A stretch of 13,715 nucleotides of DNA from a virus (Duplodnaviria > Heunggongvirae > Uroviricota > Caudoviricetes), in the IMG/VR virus record IMGVR_UViG_3300029094_000007; one strand, given 5' to 3'. The notes below the pieces were generated by a model. That model did no database searches. It was not told the origin of the DNA and saw only the letters and a list, made by a program, of their open reading frames with translations. This document shows positions 1 to 13,715 of this stretch, one piece after another. Made by a program: the position numbers and the translations under genes. Within the stretch, counting starts at the first letter, position 1; every line of letters begins with the position of its first letter.

Positions 1-638
1 GGCGAGCCAGTCCCTATACAACGCTGTGTCTGGAGTTTGTTATCGAACTGAATATCAAAACTGTCGATACAAAAACCGTTACCTCCGGCAACACCATTCA
101 GGCTTACTGCTGAAACCTCCTTAAACGAATAACGTAGCTTTCCTGCACTATCCACAGGTTCGCCTTTGATAAAATTCGTATCATCGGCCTTTGATTCCCA
201 GTCCAGTCCGGCAAAGGTTACGGTCGCTGTAATATCGCCGTCGTTAGGGATCTGCATTTTCCATGAGCCAACCTGCGCTCCTCTGACGACAGAGGCAATT
301 CCGACATCGGACGCATAGGTCGCCAGAGAAAATGTTATTCGCTCATTCCCCATTGTCAGAGAATCGCCTGACCATTCCGCGCCGAAACAGGATGCAAGAA
401 AATCATCATGTTGACCCCAGCGAAATTTGGTACCAACATCACCGCCGACATCCACAGTGCCAGGCGTCGCCCCCTGAGCCATCCGGGAGCCACCAATCTC
501 ATTATTTTCGCCTTTATTCTGGGTGGGTTTTACTCCCCAGCTTGTGCGTTTTAATAAACTCCAGTCACCACTTGCTGGCGTAGTGCCTGCAACCGTCTCC
601 CGGATAAATGCCGAGATAACCTTTGCACCTGAACTCAC
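1..638 (-). CDS. Phage major tail (tube) protein, 5' portion; C-terminus lies beyond the window start
   Basis: Hand translation of the minus strand from GTG at 638 is open for 212 codons to position 1 with no stop. AGGAGG sits 5 nt upstream of the GTG. It immediately follows the head-tail joining genes in the same orientation. Not in the ORF track, presumably because it is incomplete and GTG-initiated. Functional call is by position and Gly/Thr-rich composition only. Confidence 0.5.
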   Translation of the reverse strand, partial: MSSGAKVISAFIRETVAGTTPASGDWSLLKRTSWGVKPTQNKGENNEIGGSRMAQGATPGTVDVGGDVGTKFRWGQHDDFLASCFGAEWSGDSLTMGNERITFSLATYASDVGIASVVRGAQVGSWKMQIPNDGDITATVTFAGLDWESKADDTNFIKGEPVDSAGKLRYSFKEVSAVSLNGVAGGNGFCIDSFDIQFDNKLQTQRCIGTGS

Positions 639-664
639 AGGAGCCTCCTATGTCATTAATTGCG

Positions 665-1057
665 CTAGAGCGCGCGATATGGAATTTGAAGATTAAGCTG
701 GAACCAGCCATTCTTTTCGCCAACGGCTATTGAGGAAACAGCCTGGTAACTGAGACGATCGTCATCCTGAAACTCAAACAGTTCCCGCAATTTATCGGCT
801 GTCTCAGTAATGAGTTTTGAACCAGAACCTGCGGGGACAAATAACTGAATAATGATTATCCCCGTGCGATAAACAATCGGCCCCGCGCCAATTTCATTAA
901 CTCCAGCCTGCCCGGGAATATTACTTAACCGCGCCCAGATTAACTTACCGGAAGGATCGAACGTTGGCGCGTTCGGATACAATACGTCTTTTCCATCAAT
1001 AATCGTCTGTGCCGTCATTCTGGAAATAACCGTATTTCTGATTTCAGTAAACGTCAT
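665..1057 (-). CDS. Phage tail completion / tail terminator-like protein (130 aa)
   Basis: Track ORF. ATGA start/stop overlap with the upstream gp10-like gene. Canonical position between the head-tail joining genes and the tail tube gene. Function inferred from synteny. Confidence 0.45.
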   Translation of the reverse strand: MTFTEIRNTVISRMTAQTIIDGKDVLYPNAPTFDPSGKLIWARLSNIPGQAGVNEIGAGPIVYRTGIIIIQLFVPAGSGSKLITETADKLRELFEFQDDDRLSYQAVSSIAVGEKNGWFQLNLQIPYRAL

Positions 1058-1434
1058 TTGTAAGCCTGTAAAACACCATGAAAAGCGTTGGCATACACGC
1101 CAGTTGGCGCTTGTTGTGAATGACCGTTTTCAAGAGCCTCTGCATAAGGAAGGTTATTCTGGATATAAATAACTCCGTAATTTGCAGCTTTCGAAATAAC
1201 CCCGATCCCACGCTGAACCGCAATCGTACCGTTCGGATCCACGTTATCAGATATACCAAAATCGGGATGCTGTAACGACACCAGGTTGTTATTTCTGAAA
1301 CGTCCGGTATCAACCGGAGCAGCAATATCAATAGCAGTAAGAATCTGCATAGCGATGTAGCGAATTTTCAGCCCCACATCTTCCTCAATCATCCCGGCAA
1401 ATATTGACGGTTCTATATCCCATGCCTTTGCCAT
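1054..1434 (-). CDS. HK97 gp10-family head-tail joining protein (126 aa)
   Basis: Track ORF. Contains DTGRFRNN, matching the DTGR(L/F)R signature I recall for the HK97 gp10 family. Directly abuts neighbouring genes in an operon. Confidence 0.55.
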   Translation of the reverse strand: MAKAWDIEPSIFAGMIEEDVGLKIRYIAMQILTAIDIAAPVDTGRFRNNNLVSLQHPDFGISDNVDPNGTIAVQRGIGVISKAANYGVIYIQNNLPYAEALENGHSQQAPTGVYANAFHGVLQAYK

Positions 1435-1818
1435 TTACGCTCTCCTTAACTGGATAGAGTAAACTGATGCGGAAGGATCTACACTCGCTGTAATTACCTC
1501 GTATCGTTGTAACTGCCTTAATACAGGATCATAAATCTCAATAATATGGTCGACAGCGGGTTTATCCGTAACCTCGCATACCAGAGCGGTTAATTTAAGG
1601 TCACCATGCAAAATATTAATCCCATCAATTCTGCCCAGCTTATAACGTGTCAACACGCCTCGCCCGGTATAGATTGCGGTGGATTCGCCGCCAGTTTCCG
1701 TCACAGGATCCCAGTGCCGGTGCGTAACGTAAGAACCAGAAAAATCACTCACGGCGTCCGCTAAATCCTCATCAAAAGCAGCGGCAACCTCTGACTGAAT
1801 CTCTTCACGAAGCCCCAT
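1435..1818 (-). CDS. Phage head closure / head-tail adaptor protein (127 aa)
   Basis: Track ORF. Its start shares one base with the upstream stop (TAATG). Size and position are typical for this role; no diagnostic motif verified. Confidence 0.45.
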   Translation of the reverse strand: MGLREEIQSEVAAAFDEDLADAVSDFSGSYVTHRHWDPVTETGGESTAIYTGRGVLTRYKLGRIDGINILHGDLKLTALVCEVTDKPAVDHIIEIYDPVLRQLQRYEVITASVDPSASVYSIQLRRA

Positions 1819-2213
1819 TATCCCCCCCTCACAACTCTGACTTGTGAGCGACTAAGTCCGTACGGTTTCAGCAGTGCTATCGCAAGCTGTAAATCGGGTT
1901 CAAGCAATACAGTGCTGTTTGCTGGCAACTCAGCAAATGATTTCGATACACTGACCCCGTCAGCCGACACGGCTTTACTGATAACAACGCCAGAATCATT
2001 TTTCTGCTGAAACAACTTACCGAATGAGGCAATTCTGGCTGCATATGCTCCCGCAAGTTTTACCTCTTCCGGAATACGGGATGGGTTAATTTTCAGGTTG
2101 AAGCCATTAAGCCAGGCATTAGCCATCAAAACAGCTTTATTTTTAGCGTTCTCACTCGTCCAGGCGTTCCCAAACGCATTATCAACGTCATCACAGGTCA
2201 CGTAAGTGATCAT
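1818..2213 (-). CDS. Phage gp6-like head-tail connector protein (131 aa)
   Basis: Track ORF. N-terminus MITYVTCDDVDNAFG resembles the MIT..D.. start of gp6-like connector proteins. Lies downstream of the capsid gene. Confidence 0.45.
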   Translation of the reverse strand: MITYVTCDDVDNAFGNAWTSENAKNKAVLMANAWLNGFNLKINPSRIPEEVKLAGAYAARIASFGKLFQQKNDSGVVISKAVSADGVSVSKSFAELPANSTVLLEPDLQLAIALLKPYGLSRSQVRVVRGG

Positions 2214-2216
2214 GTG

Positions 2217-2393
2217 TTACTCCTGAGTTTTCCAGCCCATAGCCTTCCAGTTGTCAACTTCATCAGGATGAACATTAGCGATAGTTGGTGCGCCGGGAAA
2301 CATCTGATAATCGGTCACCATAACCACTAACTCAATTTGCGTTTTTTGTGCGGCTTCACGCTGTGCTCTTTGCTCTTTAGTTAATCCGGCCAT
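2217..2393 (-). CDS. Small hypothetical protein (58 aa), missing from the supplied track
   Basis: Hand translation gives MAGLTKEQRAQREAAQKTQIELVVMVTDYQMFPGAPTIANVHPDEVDNWKAMGWKTQE then TAA. GGAGGG lies just upstream of the ATG. It exactly fills the gap between the post-capsid hairpin and the connector gene, ending 3 nt before the connector start. Confidence 0.4.
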   Translation of the reverse strand: MAGLTKEQRAQREAAQKTQIELVVMVTDYQMFPGAPTIANVHPDEVDNWKAMGWKTQE

Positions 2394-2404
2394 ATGCCCT
2401 CCAT

Positions 2405-2426
2405 TAAAAATGGGGCCGAAGCCCCG
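2405..2426 (-). terminator. Intrinsic-terminator-like hairpin downstream of the major capsid gene
   Basis: Minus-strand RNA: GGGGC-UUCG-GCCCC followed by AUUUUUA, about 10 nt after the capsid stop codon. Short stem, so possibly only a partial terminator. Confidence 0.4.
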
Positions 2427-2435
2427 TTTGAATGT

Positions 2436-3575
2436 TTAACCAAGAATCAGACAACCATGTGCCGGCTTCACTGATGAAACACCCCATGCCAGTCCAACTT
2501 CATAGCGCACCTGGCGATACTGACGATACAGTGCAATCTGGAACGTAATCCCTGAAATCGGGTCCGTAACATTCATTACATCATCAGCATTATCGCCACC
2601 TTCCGGCATTGCCGGAGTACGGGATGCCAGCAGAAACGCGTTGCGATCAAACGCCATATTTGCAGTAAAGGAGCCAAGAACTGTGATTGCAGTATCATCG
2701 GCCAGATCCTGACGCAGTCCGGGCGCTGCAAGAGTAATCAGATTGCTGGTCGCTGCTGCCACAACATACTGATTCGGATCGCCAGCGAACGTAACAATCT
2801 GACCTGCAGAAATACTCCCCGAACCAGTATCAATGGAAATAAGAACATCGCCTTCTTTTTTCTCGCCATTCACGAGATAACCAGTTGCAGCAACCTTTGG
2901 CGCTCGTTTTACACCTGCCGAACTGTGAATATTGAATCCCTCCAGACGCCCCAACACGCCCTCACGCAGTAGCTGTTCAGTGCCGGATTCATTCACTTTA
3001 AACAGTACAGACTGTTTTCCGCGCAAATTAGCAATGGCAGTGGAGCCAAGCACCATCTGCAGATCGGTTGTCGGTGCGCCGTTATCCTCCAGAACCTGAC
3101 GAGCCAGAGCAGCATCAGAAAGATCATCTTTAACACCAAACGGCGTTGTCCCTGCGGTTCCCACGGCGCGGGAAGCACCGAAATACAACGCACCAAGATC
3201 AGCCTCAACCTCGTTTGCAAGGGCGCGAAAAGCCTGCTTGAACTGATCAGCCAGAATGGTGTTGTAAGTCCCTGAAGGGCCAAGAGCCAGTTGTTCTTCA
3301 CCATTCCATTTAACCGGTGCCATTTTGGATTTAGTAATTTTCACATCAACAGTGCCAATATTTTGATCACCGGTATTCGGAGCTGACGGCCCCGGTACGA
3401 TATCTTCGGTTTTCGCCTCAGGCGCAACTGGCGCGGTTACCGTCTGATCTTTTGCTGCGGCGTCAGCTTTTGCGTTTTTTGCTACCGCAGGGATAAAACC
3501 TACCTGCTCACGGGATACAATATCCAGGGCGGTATAAATAGTCGGGATCAACCCGGTCAGGGTATTTCCAGCCAT
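2436..3575 (-). CDS. Phage major capsid protein (380 aa from ATG at 3575; track ORF extends to 3668)
   Basis: Largest structural ORF after scaffold. The ATG at 3575 (MAGNTLTGLIPTIY...) is preceded by AAGGAA; the upstream extension to 3668 would overlap the scaffold gene end. Gly/Thr/Ala-rich composition typical of coat proteins. Family not determined. Confidence 0.65.
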   Translation of the reverse strand: MAGNTLTGLIPTIYTALDIVSREQVGFIPAVAKNAKADAAAKDQTVTAPVAPEAKTEDIVPGPSAPNTGDQNIGTVDVKITKSKMAPVKWNGEEQLALGPSGTYNTILADQFKQAFRALANEVEADLGALYFGASRAVGTAGTTPFGVKDDLSDAALARQVLEDNGAPTTDLQMVLGSTAIANLRGKQSVLFKVNESGTEQLLREGVLGRLEGFNIHSSAGVKRAPKVAATGYLVNGEKKEGDVLISIDTGSGSISAGQIVTFAGDPNQYVVAAATSNLITLAAPGLRQDLADDTAITVLGSFTANMAFDRNAFLLASRTPAMPEGGDNADDVMNVTDPISGITFQIALYRQYRQVRYEVGLAWGVSSVKPAHGCLILG

Positions 3576-3673
3576 AATTAAATATTCCTTAAAAATTTGC
3601 GTAATTGTGAATAGATGGAGTAATGAGCTATCCAGCCCTGACACCAGCACCCATCCGGAAGCTGACAAATGTG

Positions 3674-4438
3674 TTAATCAACAATTGTGATACCGTCTTT
3701 CAATGCGTTTTGCTTACCTGCAACATCCAGTGCATCAAAAGCAGAGCGTTTCATCGTTTTCTGACCAATATCATGCTGTGTCGGACGGGAGCCGCCGCCA
3801 TTGTTGCCACTGGCTTTCAGGATGTAGTCTTTCTGAGGGTAATTTTCGACGAGGAACTCCAGCGCCTCATCAAACTGCGCCAGTTCGCCAGGCTTCGCGC
3901 GGGAATAAATTTTGTTGCCGGAAGCGTCATAAGCAACGATCTTCCCTTCTTCCACTTTGAATGCCTGCCCGAAGCGGGCTTGTAATAAATCTGCCGGGAT
4001 CGCAATTTTATCGGCAATATATTTTGAACCCGCAAAACTACCGCCAATCATAGAATCGTAAAGCTGCGTCTCCAGCATCTGAGAGCGTTGCTTTTCTTCA
4101 TCTAATTGCTGCTGAAAATTTTTCGTAATTTCTGCCTTAACCTGGTCAACCTGTCCCGCATCGATCAGCTTTTTCTGGTCGATTTTTGACAGCATTTCCA
4201 GTGCCTCGATCGCCTTCTTCGGGTCTTCGATAGCGGCAAACTTAGCCAGTTTTTCCTCTGCAGCTTCTTTAGCCAGGCGATGATTTTTTGCCTCGCCATT
4301 AAGCTCTGTAATTTTTTTTATCGCCAGCGGTGCATCGAAGCCGATTTCTTTACCATCGTCGTGCACATAAACTGGCAGGCCAGCAGTATCAATTTCTGCG
4401 TATTGTTTTCCGTTAATCTCGACCGTTTTCAGTTTCAT
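3674..4438 (-). CDS. Phage capsid scaffolding protein (254 aa from ATG at 4438)
   Basis: Track ORF 3674..4510; internal start MKLKTVEINGKQY at 4438 chosen because the upstream extension runs through the terminator hairpin. Highly charged, helix-prone sequence (AKEAAEEKLAKFAAIEDPKKAIEALEMLSKIDQKKL). Sits between head morphogenesis and capsid genes. Confidence 0.5.
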   Translation of the reverse strand: MKLKTVEINGKQYAEIDTAGLPVYVHDDGKEIGFDAPLAIKKITELNGEAKNHRLAKEAAEEKLAKFAAIEDPKKAIEALEMLSKIDQKKLIDAGQVDQVKAEITKNFQQQLDEEKQRSQMLETQLYDSMIGGSFAGSKYIADKIAIPADLLQARFGQAFKVEEGKIVAYDASGNKIYSRAKPGELAQFDEALEFLVENYPQKDYILKASGNNGGGSRPTQHDIGQKTMKRSAFDALDVAGKQNALKDGITIVD

Positions 4439-4495
4439 ATTAGTACCTGGTTTAAGTCTTCCGACAGTTACGCTGCTCACCATCCGGATCGCAGC

Positions 4496-4522
4496 AATAA
4501 AAAAGGCCACCCGAAGGTAGCC
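4496..4522 (-). terminator. Intrinsic-terminator-like hairpin between head morphogenesis and scaffold genes
   Basis: Minus-strand RNA: GGCUACC-UUCG-GGUGGCC (7 bp stem with one G-U pair, UUCG tetraloop) followed by UUUUUUAUU. The plus-strand reading is also followed by a T-run, so it could act in both directions. Confidence 0.5.
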
Positions 4523-4542
4523 TTTTGTAATAAATGATTTAT

Positions 4543-5658
4543 TTAAATCCCTGCTTTTCTGAATACCTGTGCATCACGCTCACGGAGTTGCTTCAGCGTC
4601 AGCCATTCGCCTTTATCGGTGTAAAATTCATCTGGCGACATACCACCATCCCGAATCAGCTTTGCCCGGGTTTCCCCCACAATCTGTTTTTGTCTGGTGT
4701 AAGGCTGGCGCAAAAACCATTCCCTGTAGGTTGTATCTCCGGCCACCACGCCATCCATGCTGGCCCGCTCAGCCGGGGAAATATCACGAACATCAATACC
4801 CAGTTCCTTCGCTGATTTCAGAATGAACGTTTCCGTTGAGCGGCAGCAGAAATGAATTTTTCCCGGCCCCTGCAAATAAGGCACGCTGTGACCTACAGGT
4901 TTATTATCCAGCGTATATTTGAGGCGATCCCTGATTCGACATTGTGGCGTAGTACGATTATCAAGCGTTGATAACCATTGCTTACCCTTAATCAAATCAT
5001 TATTCGCGCTGGCAAAACTCTCACGGGCAGTAGCAGCAAGATGTCCAACCGCTGTTTTTGCAATGCTGGCCGCATTAGCCCGGCTCATCTGCAATGCACC
5101 ATCCTGAAATCCCTTACTGACATGTCCCCGAATTTTTCTTGCGATCTGCTCATTGGTATCCCCCAGCAAAAAACCCTGACGCACCGTATTTGTTATGCGT
5201 CTGAGCCGATCCGCCTCAAGATCCGAGGCCCACTCACTGAGCAGTCGTCCCTGGAATGGTCGCGCCATTGCAGCGGCGTAAAGTGCATCAGAAGAGATAC
5301 CAACCAGAGGGTGAACATCAGCAACAAAATCAGGTAGCAGAGAATCAAACAGACTTAACTGATAACCAGCCTCATAAATTGCCAGCTCGTTCAGCTCTCC
5401 GGAGAGACTGGTAAACATGCTGTTAATAGCAGCGCGGTTAACCTCTCTGACACTCGCCAGAAGTGACTCCAGGCGCGTAACGGTAAAACTACCAGGATCG
5501 AGGCTGTCCAGTGCTACCAGCAGGCGAGCTGTAAGCTCCGCATCGCTGTCATTCAGTATTTTCACCATTCTGGCAGCCACACCAGTGCTATAGCGGGATA
5601 TCCAGACTGCATGAGCAATTGATTCATCACGCAGCCGTTCATTCACGGTTTGCATCAT
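4543..5658 (-). CDS. Phage head morphogenesis protein, Mu gpF / SPP1 gp7-like (371 aa)
   Basis: Track ORF overlapping the portal gene 3' end. Position after portal and conserved-looking segments (TTPQCR...HFCCRST) match my recollection of the Mu-F-like minor head protein family. Confidence 0.6.
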   Translation of the reverse strand: MMQTVNERLRDESIAHAVWISRYSTGVAARMVKILNDSDAELTARLLVALDSLDPGSFTVTRLESLLASVREVNRAAINSMFTSLSGELNELAIYEAGYQLSLFDSLLPDFVADVHPLVGISSDALYAAAMARPFQGRLLSEWASDLEADRLRRITNTVRQGFLLGDTNEQIARKIRGHVSKGFQDGALQMSRANAASIAKTAVGHLAATARESFASANNDLIKGKQWLSTLDNRTTPQCRIRDRLKYTLDNKPVGHSVPYLQGPGKIHFCCRSTETFILKSAKELGIDVRDISPAERASMDGVVAGDTTYREWFLRQPYTRQKQIVGETRAKLIRDGGMSPDEFYTDKGEWLTLKQLRERDAQVFRKAGI

Positions 5659-7045
5659 TGATTTCCATCAGCATTACACTCTGATTTTTTAATTCATCGA
5701 TCACTTCCTCTGGACGGGAATCCTGATCGATAAATTTCAACGCCTGCAACACCCGAACCGCATCAATCTGACGTATATCACCGCCCTGACGCAATGACTG
5801 AACAGCCAGCGCGGAGGATGAGTCAAACACCTGGGCAGATACATCCAGTTCAGTGCGCACATCCACATTGCCACCGCAACTCTCTCCGCTCCATTCCGCC
5901 ATTATCTGGAGAATATTATCGAGGGCATCTTCGAGGGAGTTCGCCATTGTATAAAGCGGCGAGTGTTCCTGCATCCGCTCTTCATTAGTCTGATCAACAG
6001 ATTTGGTGGATGTATTTTCAGCCCGCAGAAGTTTAGCGCCGGCATGACGCATCTGATTTTCCAGCTTCTCAAGTGATGTTTCGCCAGATTCTATCGCTGC
6101 GCCACTATGTTCAACATATTCGAGGCCATTTTTTGTTCTGTCCTCAAAAATCGTAGCGGTGGATGCACCAACCGTCAGTTCTTCATTCCTGTCCAGCCCG
6201 TAGGCCACCAGCAATGGAACGCGGGCAACATGAAGAATATTGTCCTGCTCGCTCTGGCTTTGCCAGTGCTTGATATTCAGCAAGCCAAGATTAAGCAATG
6301 GCGGTGTACCACGCATAAACCCTGTTTTCTTCGTATACAGTGTTACCAGAGGAATATCATCACGGCTGGTATTCCATGACTCATGAAGCGTCCAGACAGA
6401 TTCGCCATTAGTACCTTCGCTGTGTCGATAAATTTCAACTCGACGGGGCATAATATGGCGGATCTGCTCCACCTTCTTCTGCCCGAAATCATCACCATCA
6501 ATAATGATGACCTCTTTTATACGCAAATCAGTGAGAACAACTTTCCCTTTTTCAACTTTCGATTTCCATCCAATAACCTGGCGTGGATTCAGCATCGTAA
6601 CGTACGGGCGACCACCGGCCGCGTTTTCATCGGCTTTTGTCCGAATCTCGTTCATATCCGTTCGTGGATAGTCCACCAGCGCATGTGCCACACCATATTG
6701 AAATGCGAGACTGAAAAATTGCTGCGCCCACACATCCAGTCGGCTCCCCTCCATGTCGATATTTTCTGCATATTCCCTGATTTTTTCCGGCGTTTCCTCA
6801 CTCAATACTGTCGGCTCTGCAAATATGCGCCCAATATTTTGTTTGATGCTTTCTTCATACACAGGAAGTAGCGTAGCCACAGACAGGCGTTTTTTATAAG
6901 CGTCTTCATCTTCATTAGGCCATTTGGGGAGATAATTTTCCCCCTGCCTGCGCATTTCAAGCGTACCGCCCATCAATGCGTCGTTAATATCCCACGCTTC
7001 CAGCATATCGTTATAGTCGAGGTTGGGTGTTGATATATCAGCCAT
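5639..7045 (-). CDS. Phage portal protein (468 aa)
   Basis: Track ORF starting 3 nt after the large terminase stop. Size and position are canonical for a portal; acidic C-terminal region. Confidence 0.7.
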   Translation of the reverse strand: MADISTPNLDYNDMLEAWDINDALMGGTLEMRRQGENYLPKWPNEDEDAYKKRLSVATLLPVYEESIKQNIGRIFAEPTVLSEETPEKIREYAENIDMEGSRLDVWAQQFFSLAFQYGVAHALVDYPRTDMNEIRTKADENAAGGRPYVTMLNPRQVIGWKSKVEKGKVVLTDLRIKEVIIIDGDDFGQKKVEQIRHIMPRRVEIYRHSEGTNGESVWTLHESWNTSRDDIPLVTLYTKKTGFMRGTPPLLNLGLLNIKHWQSQSEQDNILHVARVPLLVAYGLDRNEELTVGASTATIFEDRTKNGLEYVEHSGAAIESGETSLEKLENQMRHAGAKLLRAENTSTKSVDQTNEERMQEHSPLYTMANSLEDALDNILQIMAEWSGESCGGNVDVRTELDVSAQVFDSSSALAVQSLRQGGDIRQIDAVRVLQALKFIDQDSRPEEVIDELKNQSVMLMEINDANRE

Positions 7046-7047
7046 AA

Positions 7048-8358
7048 TTAAATCCGAAGTGATGTGACTCTTCCGGTCGGTTTGACAATAGGGAATTGCT
7101 TAACGATGAAATAACCTCCGGCATCATTCGGGTGATCATTGCCAGATTTTTTATCAGGCTCCCCCTTATCATCCCAGACCTGTTGCTCCAGAGATTCGGC
7201 ATATACCGGACAACGCTTCACATTAACTTTATAGCGACGCTCACCATTGGCATTGCAGAACATTGCATTCATTGAGTTAACGCGATCTTTTACTGGCGGG
7301 TTCGAGCTGTTCACCACAACGTTAAAACCTGCCTGCTTAAGCTGGGCTATATCCGTCGTACTTGCGTTACTTGATTTTCTGGAATCTCCGGAAGCATCTG
7401 GATAAATATAAATCTCCCTCACTTTCCGGTAATCATTCCCGTCATACAGCCAGAAGCGTTCTTTAATGATGCGGATCATATCCGGCGTATCGTAAGCATT
7501 GATGATTTCAGTTACCGCACATGGAAGCCCCAAACGCAGCACATGGATGATTCCCGCCATCTTTCCAACGTTAAAATCCATCCCAATATAAATCGGCTCC
7601 CCTGGCTGCTCCACTTCTTCGCAATTATTCAGTTTCCGGTCAAACTGATGGTAAACAGTACCACTTGTCAGGTTAGTAAATTGCCCTCGAAGATAGGCTT
7701 TAATCAGCTCTGGAGGGTATGATTCAAGAAGCGAAGGAATGTAATCTGCTGGCAGGTTCTTTTCATTATCGAAAGTAGATGCCTGCACCAGACCATACAG
7801 TGAGGCCAGCTCTGTTTTTTCACGCACGGCTTTAACAAACTGCTCGTAGACAAATTTGAATCCTTCCGGCGTGGTTGTAACGTCAATACCGTTGCGAAGT
7901 CCATCAATCTTATAACGCATACGCGCAATTATCTTGCGCCACGCCGTTCTGGCTTTTTCCTTCGGCAAAATGTCCAGTTCATCCACCAGCGCATTACCAA
8001 TTTTGAAACCGACGATCGTTTGTGGCTTCTCCATCGATCTGCAGATAGTGGTTCCCCGATACTGGCGTCCGTAATAAAAGTGAACCTCTTTATTTCCCTC
8101 ATTAATTTTTACGTTCAATCCCCAGTCAGCAGCAACTTCTTCCACTGTAGGGTAAAAAATATCGCGAATTTGGGGATACGTTGGCGCAAAATATCCCTGA
8201 TTTATACCTGGATGCTCCCAAATCCCCTTGCATATGCCGCCACACCCAACCCATGTTTTGCCCGAGCCAAAACCAGCAATATAGGCTTTAAATTTATGGG
8301 GCATTGAAAGAAATCGCGCCTGAGGCACATTAAGCGTCGGAGAGATCATCTTCATCAC
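7048..8358 (-). CDS. Phage terminase large subunit (436 aa; start may be one of the nearby in-frame ATGs)
   Basis: Walker A-like motif GFGSGKT near the N-terminus and acidic nuclease-type segments (YIYPDASGDS, GMDFNVG) in the C-terminal half. Overlaps the 3' end of the small terminase candidate. Confidence 0.85.
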   Translation of the reverse strand: MMKMISPTLNVPQARFLSMPHKFKAYIAGFGSGKTWVGCGGICKGIWEHPGINQGYFAPTYPQIRDIFYPTVEEVAADWGLNVKINEGNKEVHFYYGRQYRGTTICRSMEKPQTIVGFKIGNALVDELDILPKEKARTAWRKIIARMRYKIDGLRNGIDVTTTPEGFKFVYEQFVKAVREKTELASLYGLVQASTFDNEKNLPADYIPSLLESYPPELIKAYLRGQFTNLTSGTVYHQFDRKLNNCEEVEQPGEPIYIGMDFNVGKMAGIIHVLRLGLPCAVTEIINAYDTPDMIRIIKERFWLYDGNDYRKVREIYIYPDASGDSRKSSNASTTDIAQLKQAGFNVVVNSSNPPVKDRVNSMNAMFCNANGERRYKVNVKRCPVYAESLEQQVWDDKGEPDKKSGNDHPNDAGGYFIVKQFPIVKPTGRVTSLRI

Positions 8359-9424
8359 TCCTTAATCTGGCATCAACCACATTAATATTGATCGCCACAG
8401 GCTGGGGATGTTCATTATCCTCCACCGTTTCGATCTCTTTGCGCAGCTTCTGGTTTTCTATTCTGCGCCGTTCAATTTCCAGTTCCTGTAGCCGCTTATC
8501 TGCACATAATGCCCCGCCAGCAGAAAGCAAACGCAACAATTCACGCCGGGCGGCAGCCTTATCCTCCAGCAGGATCTCAACACCGTATTTTCCGAGCTTT
8601 GACCCTGCATATAATTGCCGCGCATCCCCATCAAGCAGTGTGGTATCAGCCATATAAAGCTGTCCCGTTCCCTCACCGCAGCACTTCGGGCAATCCGGAT
8701 TGGGTATGGCGTTATCAACAAAGCCGAGGCCTCCATATTCCGGCTCGGGTTTACCATCTCTGGAGGCCTGTGCCGCAGCCTTATCGAATTCTGCAATATC
8801 ACGCCACTGGTAGAGATGATTCTCGCCCCAGCAATAACGGCAGTTAACACGGCGAAATTGTGCCAACTGATTGGGGTCGGCCTGGACAATGGCCATCAAC
8901 TGGCTCACCAGTAAATCCAGGTCTGCGGTATAGCGTTTCTGGTACTGATTGCGGAAGTAGCTGATAGCACGATAAACCCTGGCATTTCTAAGCATACGAC
9001 TGGCGTTGCTGTTAGCTGTCGCACCTTGCCCCTCATAACCGGCTAGTCGGTACGCCTCTGTCGGCTTTTTACCCTGAGCAACAAGCATCGCAAACTTAGC
9101 CTGCTGGTCAGAAATGCCGAATTCATCGGGACAGAACGAAAATTCCTCCGCGTCGCCCTCATTCAGGCCCGCATCGAATACTGGCTTTTTTTCCTGAGAT
9201 TTTTCGTTCCGCTTTTGTGCAGTCTGCGCAGATTTTTTCTGCGCACTTTTTTGCGCAGTTTTGCGCATTTCTGTCTGCGCATTTTTCGGAGTTTTTTTGA
9301 TGTAACGACGGGCTGTTGCGTAATTCAGTCCCCTTGCTTCACACCATGCCACCGGAGATATACCGGAGCGGGTGTATTCAGCAATATACTCCTGCTGCAA
9401 CGCCCCCCAGTCCGGTCTGCTCAT
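8330..9424 (-). CDS. Candidate terminase small subunit / DNA-recognition protein, unusually long (364 aa)
   Basis: N-terminal helix-turn-helix-like segment (ISPVAWCEARGLNYATARRYI) as in many small terminases. Followed by a low-complexity AQK-rich linker, a Cys cluster (CRYC ... CPKCC) and a C-terminal charged coiled-coil-like segment. Immediately upstream of, and overlapping, the large terminase gene. Confidence 0.55.
   Translation of the reverse strand: MSRPDWGALQQEYIAEYTRSGISPVAWCEARGLNYATARRYIKKTPKNAQTEMRKTAQKSAQKKSAQTAQKRNEKSQEKKPVFDAGLNEGDAEEFSFCPDEFGISDQQAKFAMLVAQGKKPTEAYRLAGYEGQGATANSNASRMLRNARVYRAISYFRNQYQKRYTADLDLLVSQLMAIVQADPNQLAQFRRVNCRYCWGENHLYQWRDIAEFDKAAAQASRDGKPEPEYGGLGFVDNAIPNPDCPKCCGEGTGQLYMADTTLLDGDARQLYAGSKLGKYGVEILLEDKAAARRELLRLLSAGGALCADKRLQELEIERRRIENQKLRKEIETVEDNEHPQPVAININVVDARLRSDEDDLSDA
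9225..9281. repeat. Five copies of palindromic hexamer TGCGCA, each followed by a T-run, inside the small terminase gene
   Basis: TGCGCA at 9225, 9240, 9252, 9262 and 9276 on the plus strand, each followed by a run of T. On the coding strand this encodes the reiterated AQK peptide. Confidence 0.6.
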
Positions 9425-9427
9425 CAG

Positions 9428-9679
9428 TTAGTCCTGATTTTTATCCACCCTGAGTAGTTCGCGCAGAGCAAAGGCATCCCCTTTTCTGGCAAGCTTAAAC
9501 AATGCCGCTCGTAACTCGGCTTCACCTTTCGCTCTGCCCTTACGGATGGCCGCATAAAAATCTGTCATTGCTTCCCGATTTTCTTTCAGTCGGTTCAGAT
9601 CAACATCCAGAACGTCAGCGATTTGTTGTGCAGTCATCCGGCACGCTGCCAGAGACTCGACTTTCGAATACGGAATCAT
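9428..9679 (-). CDS. Small DNA-binding-like protein (83 aa), possibly terminase-associated
   Basis: Track ORF packed 3 nt from both neighbours. Helix-rich basic sequence (MTAQQIADVLDVDLNRLKE...RKGRAKGEAELRAALFKLARKGD). Function inferred only from position and composition. Confidence 0.4.
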   Translation of the reverse strand: MIPYSKVESLAACRMTAQQIADVLDVDLNRLKENREAMTDFYAAIRKGRAKGEAELRAALFKLARKGDAFALRELLRVDKNQD

Positions 9680-9682
9680 TTG

Positions 9683-10564
9683 TCACCCCATTGATATGCA
9701 GGGTGTCTTCTTCCTGTATTTTTCGTGAAGGATTTTTACTGCAGCGTTGTTCCAGGTGACCTGATGGTGAATGCGTTTATGGCTGGCACCCATCAGTGAG
9801 ATTTTTACGCACGACGGCGCATACATGACGGAGTAAAAACTTTTAACGTAGGTTCCGGAATCCAGATACAGCTCGGTCATTCCGCCGCTGTTTTTCTGCG
9901 TCTGTTTCTGCCCTAACTGGACAGCACCGATCGTCATAAACAATTCACCACAGCGACCGAGATTCGTGTACGTATTCACATCCTCGTTAATGCGCCCCAT
10001 GAATGAGAACGGTCGATCAACCGAACAGATAAAGCTGTTCATTGCCTTGCGTTTCACCCACGAAGCATGGCCGCCATTGTCACCAAGAAAATCCCCGCCC
10101 TGCGACATAGCGATGGAAAGCGCGGGTATTGATTCGTAATACGCCAGCATTTCAGAAAGGATCGCATCCAGTTTCCTTATCGGGAAATAGGCCTGGTCAT
10201 AGTTGCGATCCACCCGAAACTGGAACTCGTGATAATCATCATCGAGCTGAATGAAGTATTTACACCCGACCAGTTTTGCCAGGTCGAAACAGGCATTACG
10301 GGCGTAAAAAATTGAGCGGCGGTCACCAAAATTATCGGCTTCGTCAAAACGACTGGCGATATCGGCTTTGGAAAATACCAGCACCTGTTCACCAAATTCA
10401 GCCATGTACTGATGCCGTGTCTTATCTTCATCATCAACAACGATAAAAATTTTCCCGGTATAGCCAGCACGACGCAACGTCCGGTAAGTCAGAACTTTTT
10501 CCGGTCGTCCGTGAGTCAGAATAAAGGCGCAAAAATCATCACGCATATTCCTCCTCCCCGCCAT
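9683..10564 (-). CDS. Hypothetical protein, possibly GT-A-fold glycosyltransferase-like (293 aa; alternative start at 10546)
   Basis: Track ORF. The second in-frame ATG at 10546 is preceded by GGGAGGAGG and overlaps the ParB-like gene stop (ATGCGTGA). Pattern FCAFILTHGRPE ... IFIVVDDED ... FIQLDDDYHEF resembles the beta1-TxNR, DD and DxD elements of GT2-type enzymes. This is motif-level inference only. Confidence 0.55.
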   Translation of the reverse strand: MAGRRNMRDDFCAFILTHGRPEKVLTYRTLRRAGYTGKIFIVVDDEDKTRHQYMAEFGEQVLVFSKADIASRFDEADNFGDRRSIFYARNACFDLAKLVGCKYFIQLDDDYHEFQFRVDRNYDQAYFPIRKLDAILSEMLAYYESIPALSIAMSQGGDFLGDNGGHASWVKRKAMNSFICSVDRPFSFMGRINEDVNTYTNLGRCGELFMTIGAVQLGQKQTQKNSGGMTELYLDSGTYVKSFYSVMYAPSCVKISLMGASHKRIHHQVTWNNAAVKILHEKYRKKTPCISMG

Positions 10565-11327
10565 GCATGATCTCCACCATGCGCTGCGTCATTCGGACAA
10601 ATCCATTTTCAATAGCCTGCTGATAATCAATGATCACCAGCGCCGACTCCTCGAAAAGGCACTGAATTTCAGCGGGGGCATGAGCGTAATAGTCCGCAAT
10701 TCTGCTGAAATTAAACACCGTGTGACGTTCTGCCGCACACAGGAGGAATTTCTCAATATCAGGATCAAGGGACGCCGAACGTATCCGGCTGATCAGCTCC
10801 TGAGTTTTCGTATCGTCGTACAGTTCACTGATATCCGGTTTACCGCCCGACGGCTCATAAACAGGCGTATCAATTTTCGTCGTATACGGCTCCTCCTTAT
10901 TTCCTATACCGGGCAAAACATCCGTCAACAGTTCATCAATTTCTGTCGGGCCGAAGCCTGTCAGGGAGACATCAAAATCAGCATTGATTAGGACCGACAG
11001 CTCCATCCGCAACAGATCTTCATCCCAGCCAGCATTCATCGGTAGGCGATTATCTGCCAAGCGGTACGCCTTTTTCTGCTCATCCGTCAGGCCAGACAGA
11101 ACAATGACCGGAACAGAATCCATTTTGAGCATTTCAGCCGCCATAACACGACCGTGACCCGCAATAATTTCGCCCTTTTCGTCAATCAGCACCGGATTAG
11201 TCCAGCCGAATTGCTTAATACTTTCTACCAGTTGTGCCACCTGCTCAGTACTGTGCGTCCTGGCGTTGTGCGCATACGGTGACAATTCTTGTAATGGGCG
11301 ATAGACTATCTTTAATTTCTCGCTCAT
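10539..11327 (-). CDS. ParB-like nuclease domain (ParB/Srx N-terminal fold) protein (262 aa)
   Basis: N-terminal region PLQELSPYAHNARTHSTEQVAQLVESIKQFGWTNPVLID...IIAGHGRVMAA matches the ParB/sulfiredoxin-type signature (the G-H-R segment). C-terminal half is acidic. AAGG precedes the ATG. Confidence 0.7.
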   Translation of the reverse strand: MSEKLKIVYRPLQELSPYAHNARTHSTEQVAQLVESIKQFGWTNPVLIDEKGEIIAGHGRVMAAEMLKMDSVPVIVLSGLTDEQKKAYRLADNRLPMNAGWDEDLLRMELSVLINADFDVSLTGFGPTEIDELLTDVLPGIGNKEEPYTTKIDTPVYEPSGGKPDISELYDDTKTQELISRIRSASLDPDIEKFLLCAAERHTVFNFSRIADYYAHAPAEIQCLFEESALVIIDYQQAIENGFVRMTQRMVEIMHGGEEEYA

Positions 11328-11343
11328 ACAGCCTTGCTTTATG

Positions 11344-11379
11344 AATAAAACGCACCCCAGCAGCCAGTGCTACTGGGGG
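11344..11379 (-). terminator. Terminator-like hairpin downstream of trkG
   Basis: Minus-strand RNA: CCCCAGUAGC-ACUG-GCUGCUGGGG (about 10 bp including one G-U pair), then UGCGUUUUAUU. The U-run is 4 nt from the stem, so strength is uncertain. Confidence 0.4.
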
Positions 11380-11464
11380 CGGAGGTGTTGCTGGTAAAGT
11401 TAGGTATTGGATCAATGAGTGAGTCAATATAATATTAAACTCACAATTATAAATCAGCCATATA

Positions 11465-12922
11465 TTAGGAGCGCCAAAAAAAAACTGAAAACAATATAAT
11501 AACAGGATAAATTTCAAGGCGACCAAGAATCATAGCTATGCACATTAAATATTTTGCAATGTCATTAAGCACTCCGAATGACGATGCAGTAGCCCCAAAA
11601 CCTAATCCCATATTATTAATACATGCAGCCACTGTTGCAAATGATGTAAGAAAATCATATCCCATACCATTTAACACCAGTATAAAAAACACCGTGAAGA
11701 GAGTATAAAGAAAAAAGAAACTCCATACAGACCTCATTACACGATCTGTAACTATCTTCCCTCCTACATTTACACTCAACAACGCTCTGGGATGAGAAAG
11801 CTGATTTATCTCGTGTTTGCTTTGTTTGAAAAGTATAAGAAATCGAAGTGACTTAATTCCACCACAAGTTGAACCTATACATCCCCCAAAGAAACTTGAC
11901 AACAGCAAAAACACTATCGTGTGCGTGGGCCAGTTTGCATAATCTTGCGTAGCTAAACCATTATCAGTGAGCATGGAGCTGGCAAGAAAAAACGAATGAA
12001 TAAAACTTCCATGCAAGTCATACATACCTATATGCCAGACCTGGAAAGAGGTAACAATGACCACCACTAAGGCTATTAACAGAAAGAAACGAAGTTCAAT
12101 ATCTCTGATTAAAGGTTTTATCGTTTTTCTGCTAATAACAATATACCAAAGAGTAAAGTTGAAAGCCGATAGCAGGGAAAAAGCACCAGCCACCAGCTCA
12201 ACCAAATAGTTATTAAAATATCCGATACTCTCGCTATGAGTTGAGAAACCACCAAGCGAAACTGTGGAAATCCCGTGACAAATAGCATCAAACAAAGGCA
12301 TTCCTGCAAGTCTATAACAGACAATACAAGCAATACCTAATAAAGAATAAGTTATCCACAGTGTCCGTGACGTATCGGCCAGGCGGGGAGTGAGTTTGTC
12401 ATCCTTAAATGGCCCCGGCATTTCTGACTGATAAAGCTTTGCACCACCAATACCCAATAATGGCAATACTGCAACCGCCAGAACAATAACTCCTAAACCA
12501 CCTATAAAATTTAACTGTGACCGATAGTACAAATATGCCCGAGGTAATGAACTAACATCATCAATTACAGTTGCTCCTGTTGTTGTTATTCCAGAAACCC
12601 CTTCAAACAGAGCATCAATGAACGTTAAATTAAGTTCTGAGTCAATCCATAAAGGGAATGCACTAATAACAGAAAACAAAATCCAAAACATTACAATTAT
12701 AATAAACCCATCACGGGTACGTAATTGAATGCCAGATTTCTTAGTTGTATACCACGCTCCGCCACCAATGCAAAAAAATATAACGAAAGTTATAAAGAAA
12801 ACGAACAGGCTTTTTTCTTTATAAAACAATGCTACAACCATTGGTGGCAACATTGAAAGACTATAGAGCCAAACCAGGAACCCACACATATGAGTAACAA
12901 CTCTTACATGAGATGTATTCAT
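11465..12922 (-). CDS. trkG: Trk-system potassium uptake protein TrkG (485 aa)
   Basis: The translation (MNTSHVRVVTHMCGFLVWLYS ... ILFSVFFWRS) matches my recollection of E. coli TrkG essentially throughout. Multi-pass membrane protein. The track ORF begins at a TTG six codons upstream; the ATG at 12922 gives the expected length. The gene is visibly more AT-rich than its neighbours. Confidence 0.9.
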   Translation of the reverse strand: MNTSHVRVVTHMCGFLVWLYSLSMLPPMVVALFYKEKSLFVFFITFVIFFCIGGGAWYTTKKSGIQLRTRDGFIIIVMFWILFSVISAFPLWIDSELNLTFIDALFEGVSGITTTGATVIDDVSSLPRAYLYYRSQLNFIGGLGVIVLAVAVLPLLGIGGAKLYQSEMPGPFKDDKLTPRLADTSRTLWITYSLLGIACIVCYRLAGMPLFDAICHGISTVSLGGFSTHSESIGYFNNYLVELVAGAFSLLSAFNFTLWYIVISRKTIKPLIRDIELRFFLLIALVVVIVTSFQVWHIGMYDLHGSFIHSFFLASSMLTDNGLATQDYANWPTHTIVFLLLSSFFGGCIGSTCGGIKSLRFLILFKQSKHEINQLSHPRALLSVNVGGKIVTDRVMRSVWSFFFLYTLFTVFFILVLNGMGYDFLTSFATVAACINNMGLGFGATASSFGVLNDIAKYLMCIAMILGRLEIYPVIILFSVFFWRS

Positions 12923-12939
12923 ATCTAAATATTCTTTCA

Positions 12940-12973
12940 ATTATAACCACCTTGCTGCAATATTATGATTATA
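12940..12973 (-). promoter_or_regulatory. AT-rich putative trkG promoter region with two TATAAT hexamers
   Basis: On the minus strand, exact TATAAT hexamers lie at 12940-12945 and 12968-12973, just upstream of the trkG ATG. No convincing -35 element found, so this is tentative. Confidence 0.3.
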
Positions 12974-13059
12974 CTGTATAAAATTTAACTCCTCTTAGAT
13001 CTTACTTCACTGTTCCTTATGAAACAATCATCAAAATGAATCATATTGTAGTTAAGATT

Positions 13060-13524: not shown

Positions 13525-13715
<191 letters not shown>

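What the first reader, a model, noticed from the sequence alone, without database searches (positions are those of the whole stretch)
1..11327. Rac-like late region that retains an apparently complete packaging and head module
The K-12 Rac prophage is defective and, as I recall, lacks intact head genes downstream of trkG. Here the equivalent position carries uninterrupted terminase, portal, morphogenesis, scaffold, capsid and joining genes with tight start/stop coupling (ATGA and TAATG overlaps). That suggests a less decayed, possibly inducible relative.
Basis: inference. Interest (0 to 1): 0.4.

Follow-up and report, generated by a model that had tools for sequence, protein, structure and literature searches.

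The report
Undeleted Rac prophage head genes
This is the ordinary, undeleted form of the E. coli Rac prophage late region, with intact DNA-packaging, head and neck genes that strain K-12 lost in one 11.6-kb deletion; it is common and already described, and this copy has an insertion sequence in its lysis enzyme gene.

Summary
Window 1-11327 carries 15 uninterrupted, tightly coupled minus-strand genes: ParB-like, glycosyltransferase, g83, TerS, TerL, portal, MuF, scaffold, capsid, g58, four neck genes and the start of the tail tube.

K-12 Rac matches only 11074-13497. K-12 has an 11,556-bp deletion that joins ynaK codon ~85 to ydaY, so window 1-11073 lies wholly inside that deletion.

The head genes have the same lengths as those of the viable phage HK639. 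TerL aligns end to end with terminases of isolated phages. pN/pS against diverged copies is 0.11-0.16.

The finding is not new:
- 712 of 5,426 complete E. coli genomes hold at least 80% of the K-12-missing segment.
- A copy differing by 4 SNPs sits at ttcA with intR/xisR, recET, replication, lysis and tail genes.
- Full-sized and active Rac-like prophages (KingRac) are published.

"Possibly inducible" is weakened. Window 13641-13715 is the end of an IS3-family element that splits the endolysin gene at about codon 138 of 177.

One side observation: the ParB-like/TAGT glycosyltransferase pair (K-12 ynaK is its stump) is a conserved cassette next to terminase genes, with no dioxygenase partner and no known function.

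The parts
1..638 (-). Tail tube protein gene, N-terminal 212 codons (the gene runs off the window start)
   Evidence: phrog_290. The full 320-aa homologue in L001 matches PF18906 Phage_tube_2.
665..1057 (-). Tail terminator (130 aa)
   Evidence: phrog_179, E 2.8e-41. PF13554.
1054..1434 (-). Tail completion / Neck1 protein (126 aa); ATGA overlap with the next gene
   Evidence: phrog_169, E 2.8e-55. Junction.
1435..1818 (-). Head closure protein Hc1 (127 aa)
   Evidence: phrog_161, covering 1-120 of 120 profile positions.
1818..2213 (-). Head-tail adaptor Ad1 (131 aa); TAATG overlap with Hc1
   Evidence: phrog_493, covering 1-127 of 128 profile positions. Junction.
2217..2393 (-). Small conserved head-module protein g58 (58 aa), function unknown
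   Evidence: phrog_1514, full length. 62% identical to HK639 gp07.
2412..2425 (-). Terminator-like hairpin GGGGCTTCGGCCCC followed by a T-run, just after the capsid gene
   Evidence: Consensus scan only.
2436..3575 (-). Major capsid protein (379 aa), P22-coat-like
   Evidence: PF11651 and phrog_283, E 5e-136. 74.7% identical to the HK639 major head protein, 379 vs 378 aa.
3674..4438 (-). Scaffolding protein (254 aa), DUF6651
   Evidence: PF20356, phrog_784 and phrog_206 'head scaffolding'. 66.5% identical to HK639 gp05, 254 vs 250 aa.
4501..4526 (-). Terminator-like hairpin between the MuF and scaffold genes
   Evidence: HK639 has an annotated terminator at the same position.
4543..5655 (-). 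Minor head / head-morphogenesis protein, MuF/SPP1 gp7 family (370 aa), without a C-terminal toxin extension
   Evidence: PF04233, phrog_241 E 7.5e-182, TIGR01641. 50% identical to HK639 gp04, 370 vs 368 aa.
5639..7045 (-). Portal protein (468 aa), DUF4055 type
   Evidence: PF13264 and phrog_145, E 5e-165. 68.8% identical to the HK639 portal, 468 vs 466 aa.
7048..8349 (-). Terminase large subunit (433 aa)
   Evidence: Terminase_6N covers profile positions 3-213 of 215 and Terminase_6C covers 1-154 of 155. It aligns over 97-98% of its length to TerL of isolated siphophages at 43-56% identity.
8330..9424 (-). Terminase small subunit (364 aa), with an N-terminal HTH-like part and a CxxC...CxxCC insertion
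   Evidence: PF03592 and phrog_51, covering 1-261 of 261 profile positions. Sequence.
9428..9679 (-). g83, a small protein (83 aa) matching the middle of some small-terminase profiles
   Evidence: phrog_309, E 8e-23. Conserved directly after TAGT in 27 of the 28 divergent IMG/VR loci that still carry a full-length TAGT.
9683..10546 (-). TAGT/GREB1-like GT-A glycosyltransferase (287 aa); invariant DDD motif
   Evidence: PF20691, E 3.7e-35, and phrog_842. Family alignment A2 and homologue lengths of 284-290 aa.
9686..9689 (-). G4 run just before the TAGT stop codon. Most E. coli copies have G5, which extends TAGT to 310 aa and shortens g83 to 69 aa.
10539..11327 (-). Full-length ParB-like protein (262 aa). 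K-12 ynaK is its first ~85 codons.
   Evidence: PF02195 and phrog_620, E 2.6e-88. K-12 homology stops at 11074.
11074..13497 (.). The only part of the window with a counterpart in K-12 Rac (97.9% identity). Position 11073/11074 is the K-12 deletion junction, with 2-nt microhomology.
11355..11378 (-). Terminator-like hairpin after trkG
   Evidence: Consensus scan only.
11465..12922 (-). trkG potassium transporter (485 aa). A low-GC (0.378) cargo gene with 137-nt spacers on both sides.
   Evidence: PF02386. GC content and spacers. Annotated trkG.
13060..13524 (-). Rz spanin (154 aa), with embedded Rz1 lipoprotein at 13119-13304
   Evidence: PF03245, phrog_13 and phrog_3198.
13521..13640 (-). 3' remnant (last ~39 codons) of the SAR-type endolysin gene
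   Evidence: Identical to L001 up to 13640, then diverges. The intact protein is 177 aa, with PF00959 spanning residues 33-167.
13641..13715 (-). Terminal inverted-repeat end of an ISEc31-like IS3-family insertion sequence (TGTAGTGGTCAAGTAATACTGGCCAC...)
   Evidence: Matches IS copies in 1,786 genomes. Ends defined on an ISEc31 copy that splits a vgrG gene.

Best explanation
The window is a stretch of the late operon of a full-size Rac-family lambdoid prophage of E. coli.

In the direction of transcription (minus strand) it runs:
- the end of the lysis cassette (endolysin 3' end, Rz/Rz1);
- the cargo gene trkG;
- a ParB-like/TAGT glycosyltransferase pair;
- g83, TerS and TerL;
- portal, MuF minor head protein, scaffold, P22-coat-like capsid and g58;
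- the four neck proteins and the tail tube.

Shown by the data:
- All of these genes are intact and full-length against homologues.
- The head block is the HK639 type.
- K-12 Rac is the same element after one 11,556-bp deletion, from ynaK codon ~85 to the start of ydaY. That deletion removed everything from the ParB C-terminus to the tail tube.

Inferred:
- The module builds proheads by a scaffold-dependent pathway without a protease. No protease gene lies between portal and capsid.
- DNA is packaged by a Terminase_6-type enzyme, probably headful. This rests on the TerL family only.

This particular copy carries an IS3-family element inside the endolysin gene. Even if its structural genes can still make particles, it is probably defective for lysis and release. 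It is better described as an early-stage decaying Rac prophage than as an active one.
For: - Gene identities and full profile coverage.
- End-to-end collinearity and equal lengths with the viable phage HK639: portal 468/466 aa, MuF 370/368, scaffold 254/250, capsid 379/378, g58 58/61.
- TerL aligns over 97-98% of its length to terminases of isolated phages.
- K-12 junction mapped by alignment and BLAST.
- The CH4796 copy (4 SNPs from the window) lies at ttcA with intR/xisR and has complete early, lysis and tail modules.
- 709-712 of 5,426 complete genomes carry at least 80% of the region. Other genomes show nested deletions anchored at the ynaK/trkG side.
- pN/pS is 0.11-0.16 over the packaging, head and neck genes against three diverged copies.
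- In 80 IMG/VR copies, counting only those where the gene is matched and not cut by a contig end, MuF was intact in 41 of 42, portal in 43 of 49 and TerL in 47 of 52.
- IS junction. The endolysin domain spans residues 33-167, and the break is at about residue 138.
- Literature: full-sized Rac-like prophages (PMC5917428), Sp10/CP-933R at ttcA (PMC4632033), and the active KingRac that replaces K-12 Rac and yields particles after mitomycin C (PMC6731689).
Against: - The integration site and the early, tail-tip and holin regions of this genome are outside the window. They are inferred only from near-identical copies.
- Only 75 bases of the IS are visible. A simple insertion cannot be told apart from an IS-mediated rearrangement.
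- The exact junction was found in none of 5,426 complete genomes, nor in the GTDB representative genomes.
- Loss of the endolysin C-terminus is assumed, not shown, to abolish activity. Another resident lambdoid prophage could supply endolysin in trans.
- Headful packaging is inferred from TerL family membership only.
- It is not shown that KingRac has this same head module.
Confidence: 0.85

Rival explanations
1. The prophage in this genome is fully functional and inducible. On this view the IS insertion is harmless, or it is complemented by the lysis genes of another resident lambdoid prophage.
For: - All packaging, head and neck genes are intact and under purifying selection.
- Rz/lysozyme-like sequences occur a median of 2 times per E. 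coli genome, so trans-complementation is plausible.
- Q-modified transcription could read through the IS, which lies in the same orientation as the late genes.
- An active Rac-like phage exists.
Against: - The endolysin reading frame is cut at about codon 138 of 177, inside the PF00959 domain.
- Sibling copies carry further lesions: tape-measure stop codons, IS1 in the tape measure, and a portal frameshift. Decay is therefore frequent in this lineage.
- The rest of the prophage in this genome is unseen.
Confidence: 0.12
2. The structural module is kept because the host benefits from it. Examples would be a domesticated transducing particle or a capsid donor for satellites. On this view it is not there because the element is, or recently was, a phage.
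For: - The head genes were intact in 6 of 7 annotated copies, while tape-measure, lysis or ParB genes were damaged in several.
- pN/pS is about 0.11-0.16.
Against: - The same pN/pS is expected for genes that diverged while circulating as an active phage.
- The nested deletion series removes head genes freely and keeps only the trkG side.
- 348 genomes carry the K-12-type deletion.
- There is no evidence of any satellite or gene-transfer-agent-like regulation.
Confidence: 0.03

Closest known systems
Cryptic prophage Rac of E. coli K-12 (NC_000913.3 1411899-1434958)
   Same: The trkG, Rz/Rz1 remnant and ynaK 5' part are 97.9% identical to the window. In the near-identical CH4796 copy, the same ttcA site, intR/xisR, recET, kilR, sieB, ydaY and tape-measure start are present.
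   Different: K-12 lacks 11,556 bp, from the ParB C-terminus to the tail tube. That covers all packaging, head and neck genes. K-12 also lacks Q, holin and endolysin, and has IS5 in lomR.
Escherichia phage HK639 (NC_016158), an isolated lambdoid phage
   Same: The head block is collinear: portal, MuF, a terminator, scaffold, capsid and a small ORF. Identities are 50-75% and protein lengths are equal.
   Different: HK639 has unrelated TerS and TerL, and mostly different neck proteins. It has no trkG and no ParB/TAGT pair, and its early region and integrase differ.
KingRac, an active Rac-like prophage of a mouse commensal E. coli (Frazao et al. 2019, PMC6731689)
   Same: A full-size (46.8 kb) Rac-related prophage at ttcA. 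It replaces defective K-12 Rac and yields tailed particles after mitomycin C.
   Different: KingRac is weakly inducible but functional, whereas this copy has an IS in its endolysin gene.
Rac-like prophages Sp10/CP-933R (O157:H7) and Rac-SA53 (LT-II toxin phage)
   Same: Full-sized prophages of the Rac lineage at ttcA.
   Different: Rac-SA53 shares only about 5% of the window, part of TerS at 90% identity. These elements therefore carry other late regions.
Phage 5mYOX (TET/JBP)-ParB-glycosyltransferase DNA hypermodification clusters (O'Toole et al. 2026, PMC13229309)
   Same: A ParB-like protein with an N-terminal nucleotide-binding domain and a conserved C-terminal domain, next to a glycosyltransferase and next to terminase genes.
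   Different: No dioxygenase gene is present in the window, in the CH4796 prophage, or beside the cassette in the neighbourhoods with Pfam gene annotation, loci L094-L100. Presence of the cassette itself, not absence of a dioxygenase, was what one search tested across 37 loci.

Membership tests
Rac-family prophage of E. coli | trkG cargo gene between the lysis cassette and ynaK, with high identity to K-12 Rac | tested here: met
   Window 11074-13497 is 97.9% identical to K-12 Rac rzpR/rzoR-trkG-ynaK.
Rac-family prophage of E. coli | Collinear with both flanks of the K-12 Rac internal deletion | tested here: met
   K-12 L003 17631 corresponds to window 11074. K-12 L003 17630 corresponds to L001 17517, which is 483 bp beyond the window start. 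The second flank is therefore seen in the CH4796 copy, which differs from the window by 4 SNPs.
Rac-family prophage of E. coli | Integration in ttcA with IntR/XisR, and a recET/kilR/sieB early region | not testable with these tools
   These regions lie outside the window, and the source genome was not found. The feature is met in the CH4796 copy.
HK639-type head module | Order portal (DUF4055) - MuF - scaffold (DUF6651) - P22-coat-like capsid - small ORF, with end-to-end homology | tested here: met
   Identities of 50-75% and equal protein lengths. Pfam and PHROG assignments.
Functional (inducible, releasable) temperate phage | Uninterrupted packaging, head and neck genes | tested here: met
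Functional (inducible, releasable) temperate phage | Intact lysis cassette (holin, endolysin, spanins) | tested here: not met
   The endolysin gene is split by an IS3-family element at window 13640/13641. Rz/Rz1 are intact. The holin is outside the window.
Functional (inducible, releasable) temperate phage | Tail, replication, immunity and integration modules present and intact; particles produced on induction | not testable with these tools
   These parts lie outside the window. Sibling copies range from complete (CH4796, A11) to damaged.
5mYOX(TET/JBP)-ParB-GT DNA hypermodification pathway | TAGT-family glycosyltransferase with a DXD motif | tested here: met
   PF20691, E 3.7e-35. D102-D104 are invariant in alignment A2.
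5mYOX(TET/JBP)-ParB-GT DNA hypermodification pathway | Adjacent ParB-like partner | tested here: met
   8-nt overlap with TAGT. A ParB homologue lies immediately upstream of TAGT in 37 of 37 divergent loci.
5mYOX(TET/JBP)-ParB-GT DNA hypermodification pathway | Fe(II)/2-oxoglutarate 5-methylpyrimidine dioxygenase gene | tested here: not met
   No PF12851 hit on any window protein, on unknown ORFs of the CH4796 prophage, or among precomputed Pfam hits of neighbours in loci L094-L100. A very divergent dioxygenase elsewhere in the genome is not excluded.

The most novel reading that the evidence does not exclude
The ParB-like/TAGT gene pair (window 9683-11327; K-12 ynaK is its broken stump) may be a self-contained late-expressed modification system that works without a TET/JBP dioxygenase.

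One possibility is that the ParB-like protein loads or activates the GT-A glycosyltransferase on phage DNA around the time of packaging, which would give a DNA glycosylation chemistry not yet described. Another is that the enzyme glycosylates a protein, as eukaryotic GREB1 does.

The cassette moves as a unit between phages with unrelated terminases, portals and capsids, and it always sits directly upstream of the terminase genes.
Probability: 0.2. Interest if true: 0.6.

Novelty: already known. Interest (0 to 1): 0.15.

Why it matters
As stated, the finding matters little. It re-derives a known fact: K-12 Rac is a deletion derivative of a common full-size prophage whose complete relatives, some of them active, circulate in natural E. 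coli.

It has three modest uses:
- It gives base-level coordinates for the K-12 deletion. It also shows that K-12 ynaK is a gene fragment, and that the 5' end of K-12 ydaY lies at the deletion junction.
- It documents a decay series. Deletions are nested and anchored next to the host-useful trkG gene, and IS elements and stop codons recur in lysis and tail genes.
- It flags an uncharacterised ParB/glycosyltransferase cassette that is conserved next to terminase genes. That cassette would be worth a nucleoside-level analysis of virion DNA.

Tried and rejected
- **Phage GenBank records as proof of virions.** The 98%-identical records ON470614 and relatives are PHASTER-predicted prophage regions from clinical isolates. 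"Salmonella phage SPF_0923" (ON032529) includes the chromosomal genes sitABCD, uspF, ompN and ydbK. Neither is evidence of particles.
- **Search for the source genome.** I wanted to see past the IS. An exact look-up of the TrkG protein gave only a 2.9-kb Logan contig. The exact IS junction string gave nothing in the GTDB representative genomes. No complete E. coli genome spans the junction.
- **PGAP pseudogene flags.** PGAP marks ynaK "incomplete" in CH4796 and TAGT "frameshifted" in T28R. The ynaK sequence is identical to the window's intact 262-aa ORF, and the flag reflects use of the K-12 fragment as reference. The window's 287-aa TAGT has the family-typical length; the commoner 310-aa E. 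coli allele is the odd one.
- **Hidden dioxygenase.** I looked for a partner for TAGT among unknown ORFs of the CH4796 prophage and found none.
- **Non-coding RNAs.** Rfam and tRNA scans of the window found nothing.
- **Papers not held.** Jobling 2016 (PMC4957749) and Iyer et al. 2013 (PMC3763556) are not in the library.

Full report
**What is in the window.** All substantial ORFs lie on the minus strand. In the direction of transcription the window holds:
- the last ~39 codons of an endolysin gene (13521-13640);
- Rz with embedded Rz1 (13060-13524);
- trkG (11465-12922);
- a ParB-like gene (10539-11327);
- a TAGT/GREB1-like glycosyltransferase (9683-10546);
- a small gene, g83 (9428-9679);
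- TerS (8330-9424) and TerL (7048-8349);
- portal (5639-7045), MuF-type minor head protein (4543-5655), scaffold (3674-4438), capsid (2436-3575) and g58 (2217-2393);
- adaptor Ad1, head closure Hc1, Neck1 and tail terminator (665-2213);
- the first 212 codons of the tail tube gene (1-638).

Pfam, PHROG and NCBIfam assignments are strong and mostly cover the profiles end to end. Most other junctions are overlaps or gaps of 2-3 nt. Terminator-like hairpins follow trkG, MuF and the capsid gene. HK639 has an annotated terminator in the same place after its MuF gene. trkG has a GC content of 0.378, against 0.45-0.51 for its neighbours. No Rfam family or tRNA is present.

**Relation to K-12 Rac.** The annotated K-12 prophage goes trkG, ynaK (87 aa), ydaY, ynaA (tape-measure fragment), lomR::IS5, stfR, tfaR, pinR. 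BLAST of the window against it finds one match, window 11074-13497 at 97.9%. I compared K-12 with a full-length copy in strain CH4796 (locus L001), which differs from the window by 4 SNPs over 13,640 bases.
- K-12 position 17631 of L003 joins L001 29074, which equals window 11074.
- K-12 position 17630 joins L001 17517.
- K-12 therefore lacks 11,556 bp, with a 2-nt microhomology at the junction.
- Window 1-11073 lies entirely inside that deletion.
- K-12 ynaK is the first ~85 codons of the 262-aa ParB-like gene, and the 5' end of K-12 ydaY sits at the junction.

The contiguous K-12 junction occurs in 348 of 5,426 complete genomes, including K-12 derivatives such as BW25113 and DSM 498. Elsewhere its two halves lie apart.

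**Integrity test.**
- The head block is collinear with the isolated lambdoid phage HK639, and protein lengths match: portal 468 vs 466 aa (69% identity), MuF 370 vs 368 (50%), scaffold 254 vs 250 (67%), capsid 379 vs 378 (75%), g58 58 vs 61 (62%).
- TerL aligns over 97-98% of its length with terminases of isolated siphophages at 43-56% identity.
- Against three diverged E. coli copies, the packaging, head and neck genes together give pN/pS of 0.16, 0.12 and 0.11.
- In 80 IMG/VR copies, counting only those where the gene is matched and not cut by a contig end, the reading frame had the window's length in 41 of 42 (MuF), 43 of 49 (portal) and 47 of 52 (TerL).

One length difference needed checking. 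The window has G4 before the TAGT stop codon, while 74 of 80 IMG/VR copies have G5 and the other six did not match the search pattern used to count the run. G5 gives a 310-aa TAGT and a 69-aa downstream ORF. Homologues from Salmonella, Klebsiella, Serratia, Pantoea, Yersinia and metagenomes are 284-290 aa and end where the window's allele ends. The window's allele is therefore the family-typical one. No frameshift or truncation was found in 1-11327.

**How common and how known.**
- 709 of 5,426 complete E. coli genomes hold at least 80% of the whole window in one place.
- 712 hold at least 80% of the K-12-missing part, and 1,234 hold some of it.
- The partial copies form a nested series that always keeps the ynaK/trkG side. 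Examples are 5439-11073, 7167-11073, 8540-11073, 10010-11073 and 10832-11073. This is what independent deletions beside a host-useful gene would produce.
- The CH4796 copy lies between ttcA-intR-xisR and sitABCD. It carries ralR, recT, recE, racC, kilR, sieB, repressor/cro-like genes, ydaT, replication genes, rusA, an antiterminator, holin, endolysin, Rz, then the window's genes, then ydaY, tape measure, M, L, K, I, J and tail fibres.
- The literature already describes full-sized Rac-like prophages (PMC5917428) and Sp10/CP-933R at ttcA (PMC4632033).
- It also describes KingRac, a 46.8-kb Rac-like prophage. KingRac replaces defective K-12 Rac in the mouse gut and gives tailed particles after mitomycin C (PMC6731689; PMC12251178).
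- I could not test whether KingRac carries this head module.

**Is this copy "possibly inducible"?** The whole-window search stopped at 13640 in every genome. The last 75 bases match the end of an IS3-family element annotated ISEc31, present in 1,786 genomes.
- On an ISEc31 copy that splits a vgrG gene, the element's ends are TGTAGTGGTCAAGTAATACTGGCCAC... and its imperfect inverted repeat. The window switches from endolysin to exactly this end at 13640/13641.
- The intact endolysin of CH4796 is a 177-aa SAR-type lysozyme whose PF00959 domain spans residues 33-167. It sits beside a P21-type holin.
- The window keeps only residues ~139-177, and the frame coming out of the IS has a stop nine codons upstream of the junction.
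- The endolysin gene of this genome is therefore interrupted inside its catalytic domain.

I infer that release of progeny is impaired. Assembly inside the cell, or rescue by another prophage's endolysin, remains possible. Only 75 bases of the IS are visible, and the source genome could not be found. A rearrangement rather than a simple insertion therefore cannot be excluded.

Sibling copies show that such lesions are frequent:
- TUM9803 has an IS3-family element at g58, a portal frameshift and a tape-measure stop.
- Strain 266917_2 has a tape-measure stop.
- T28R has IS1 in the tape measure and an IS3 next to the lysozyme gene.
- MEI1A-0323 has a split ParB gene.
- MB07081 has lost the trkG/lysis side.

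**Mechanism.** Shown: gene content, order and integrity. Inferred from the named families:
- Late transcription from the Q-dependent promoter reads through the lysis genes and trkG into the packaging genes.
- TerS, possibly with g83, recognises phage DNA. TerL (Terminase_6N/6C) cuts and translocates it through the DUF4055 portal.
- Proheads assemble from the P22-coat-like capsid protein on a DUF6651 scaffold together with the MuF minor head protein. No protease gene is present between portal and capsid.
- Ad1, Hc1, Neck1 and the terminator join the filled head to a lambda-like non-contractile tail.
- Headful packaging is suggested only by the TerL family.

**Side observation inside the finding's coordinates.** The ParB-like gene and the TAGT gene overlap by 8 nt and sit directly upstream of g83 and TerS.
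- The TAGT family (PF20691) includes the T2/T6 beta-glucosyl-HMC-alpha-glucosyltransferase. "Solitary" TAGTs were reported in 288 of 753 glycosyltransferase-encoding phage genomes and are unexplained (PMC13216743).
- Phage thymine dioxygenases co-occur with glycosyltransferases, ParBs and terminases, and one such dioxygenase needs a ParB to act on double-stranded DNA (PMC13229309).
- Here no dioxygenase is detectable.
- The ParB/TAGT pair is nevertheless conserved as a unit. A ParB homologue (45-80% identical in copies from other genera and metagenomes, aligned over nearly its whole length) lies immediately upstream of TAGT in 37 of 37 divergent loci. The pair precedes unrelated terminase, portal and capsid types: Terminase_2, Terminase_4/TerL_ATPase and lambda GpA terminases; Phage_portal, portal_2 and portal_3; HK97-type capsid with ClpP or S78 protease.

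Its function is unknown. A modification role linked to packaging is a hypothesis, not a result.

**Verdict.** However, the arrangement is the common, published, undeleted state of the element, so it is not a discovery. The suggestion of inducibility is weakened for this copy by an IS element in the endolysin gene, and otherwise cannot be judged from the window.

Noticed in passing
window 13641-13715 (and 13521-13640): The window ends 75 bases into an ISEc31-like IS3-family element. The element interrupts the prophage endolysin gene at about codon 138 of 177. The exact junction is absent from 5,426 complete E. coli genomes and from the GTDB representative genomes.
   Followed up: yes
window 9683-11327; loci L094-L100, L149-L178: The ParB-like gene (full-length YnaK) and the TAGT/GREB1-like glycosyltransferase form a conserved overlapping two-gene cassette. 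It lies immediately upstream of terminase genes in phages with unrelated packaging and head modules (37 of 37 divergent loci). No TET/JBP dioxygenase was found nearby. Function is unknown.
   Followed up: partly
window 9686-9689: Homopolymer polymorphism. The window, CH4796, TUM9803 and T28R have G4, giving TAGT of 287 aa and g83 of 83 aa. At least 74 of 80 IMG/VR copies have G5, giving TAGT of 310 aa and a 69-aa ORF. Homologues in other genera have the G4-type length. PGAP annotates the two states inconsistently.
   Followed up: yes
L001 29070-29327 (= window 11070-11327); also L008, L010, L011: RefSeq/PGAP labels the 5' part of the intact 262-aa ParB-like gene as "ynaK, incomplete, missing C-terminus". 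The apparent cause is that the truncated K-12 YnaK serves as the reference. The same sequence is annotated as a complete protein in TUM9803 and A11.
   Followed up: partly
one search hit table (window 1-11073 against complete E. coli genomes): Partial copies form a nested deletion series. It always retains the ynaK/trkG end and loses progressively more of the packaging and head genes. This is consistent with repeated independent deletions beside a retained cargo gene.
   Followed up: partly
L001 1-3211; L179 (ON032529) 28143-31592: The sitABCD iron/manganese transporter operon lies directly beyond the tail-fibre end of the full-size prophage. It sits between the prophage and uspF-ompN, a position where K-12 has no sit genes.
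   Followed up: no
phage-collection records ON470614 and relatives, ON032529: Records deposited as complete phage genomes are predicted prophage regions. ON032529, named a Salmonella phage, contains E. coli-type chromosomal genes (sitABCD, uspF, ompN, ydbK). They should not be read as evidence of virions or of host range.
   Followed up: partly
L001 17166-17525 (483-842 bp beyond the window start): ydaY lies between the tail tube and tape-measure genes, the usual place of the tail assembly chaperone. K-12 ydaY has lost its native 5' end to the deletion junction. The PHROG check failed on a coordinate error and was not repeated.
   Followed up: no
window 8330-9424: TerS is unusually long (364 aa). 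The Terminase_2 match spans 195 residues for 111 profile positions, because of an insertion carrying CxxC...CxxCC motifs. The preceding g83 also matches a small-terminase PHROG. In 21 of 80 IMG/VR copies the alignment to the window's TerS gene stops at nucleotide 885 of 1095.
   Followed up: no
window 11328-13059: trkG (GC 0.378) is flanked by 137-nt spacers on both sides. A promoter-like site lies at 13069-13040 and a terminator-like hairpin at 11378-11355. This fits an independently expressed cargo gene set into the late operon.
   Followed up: no
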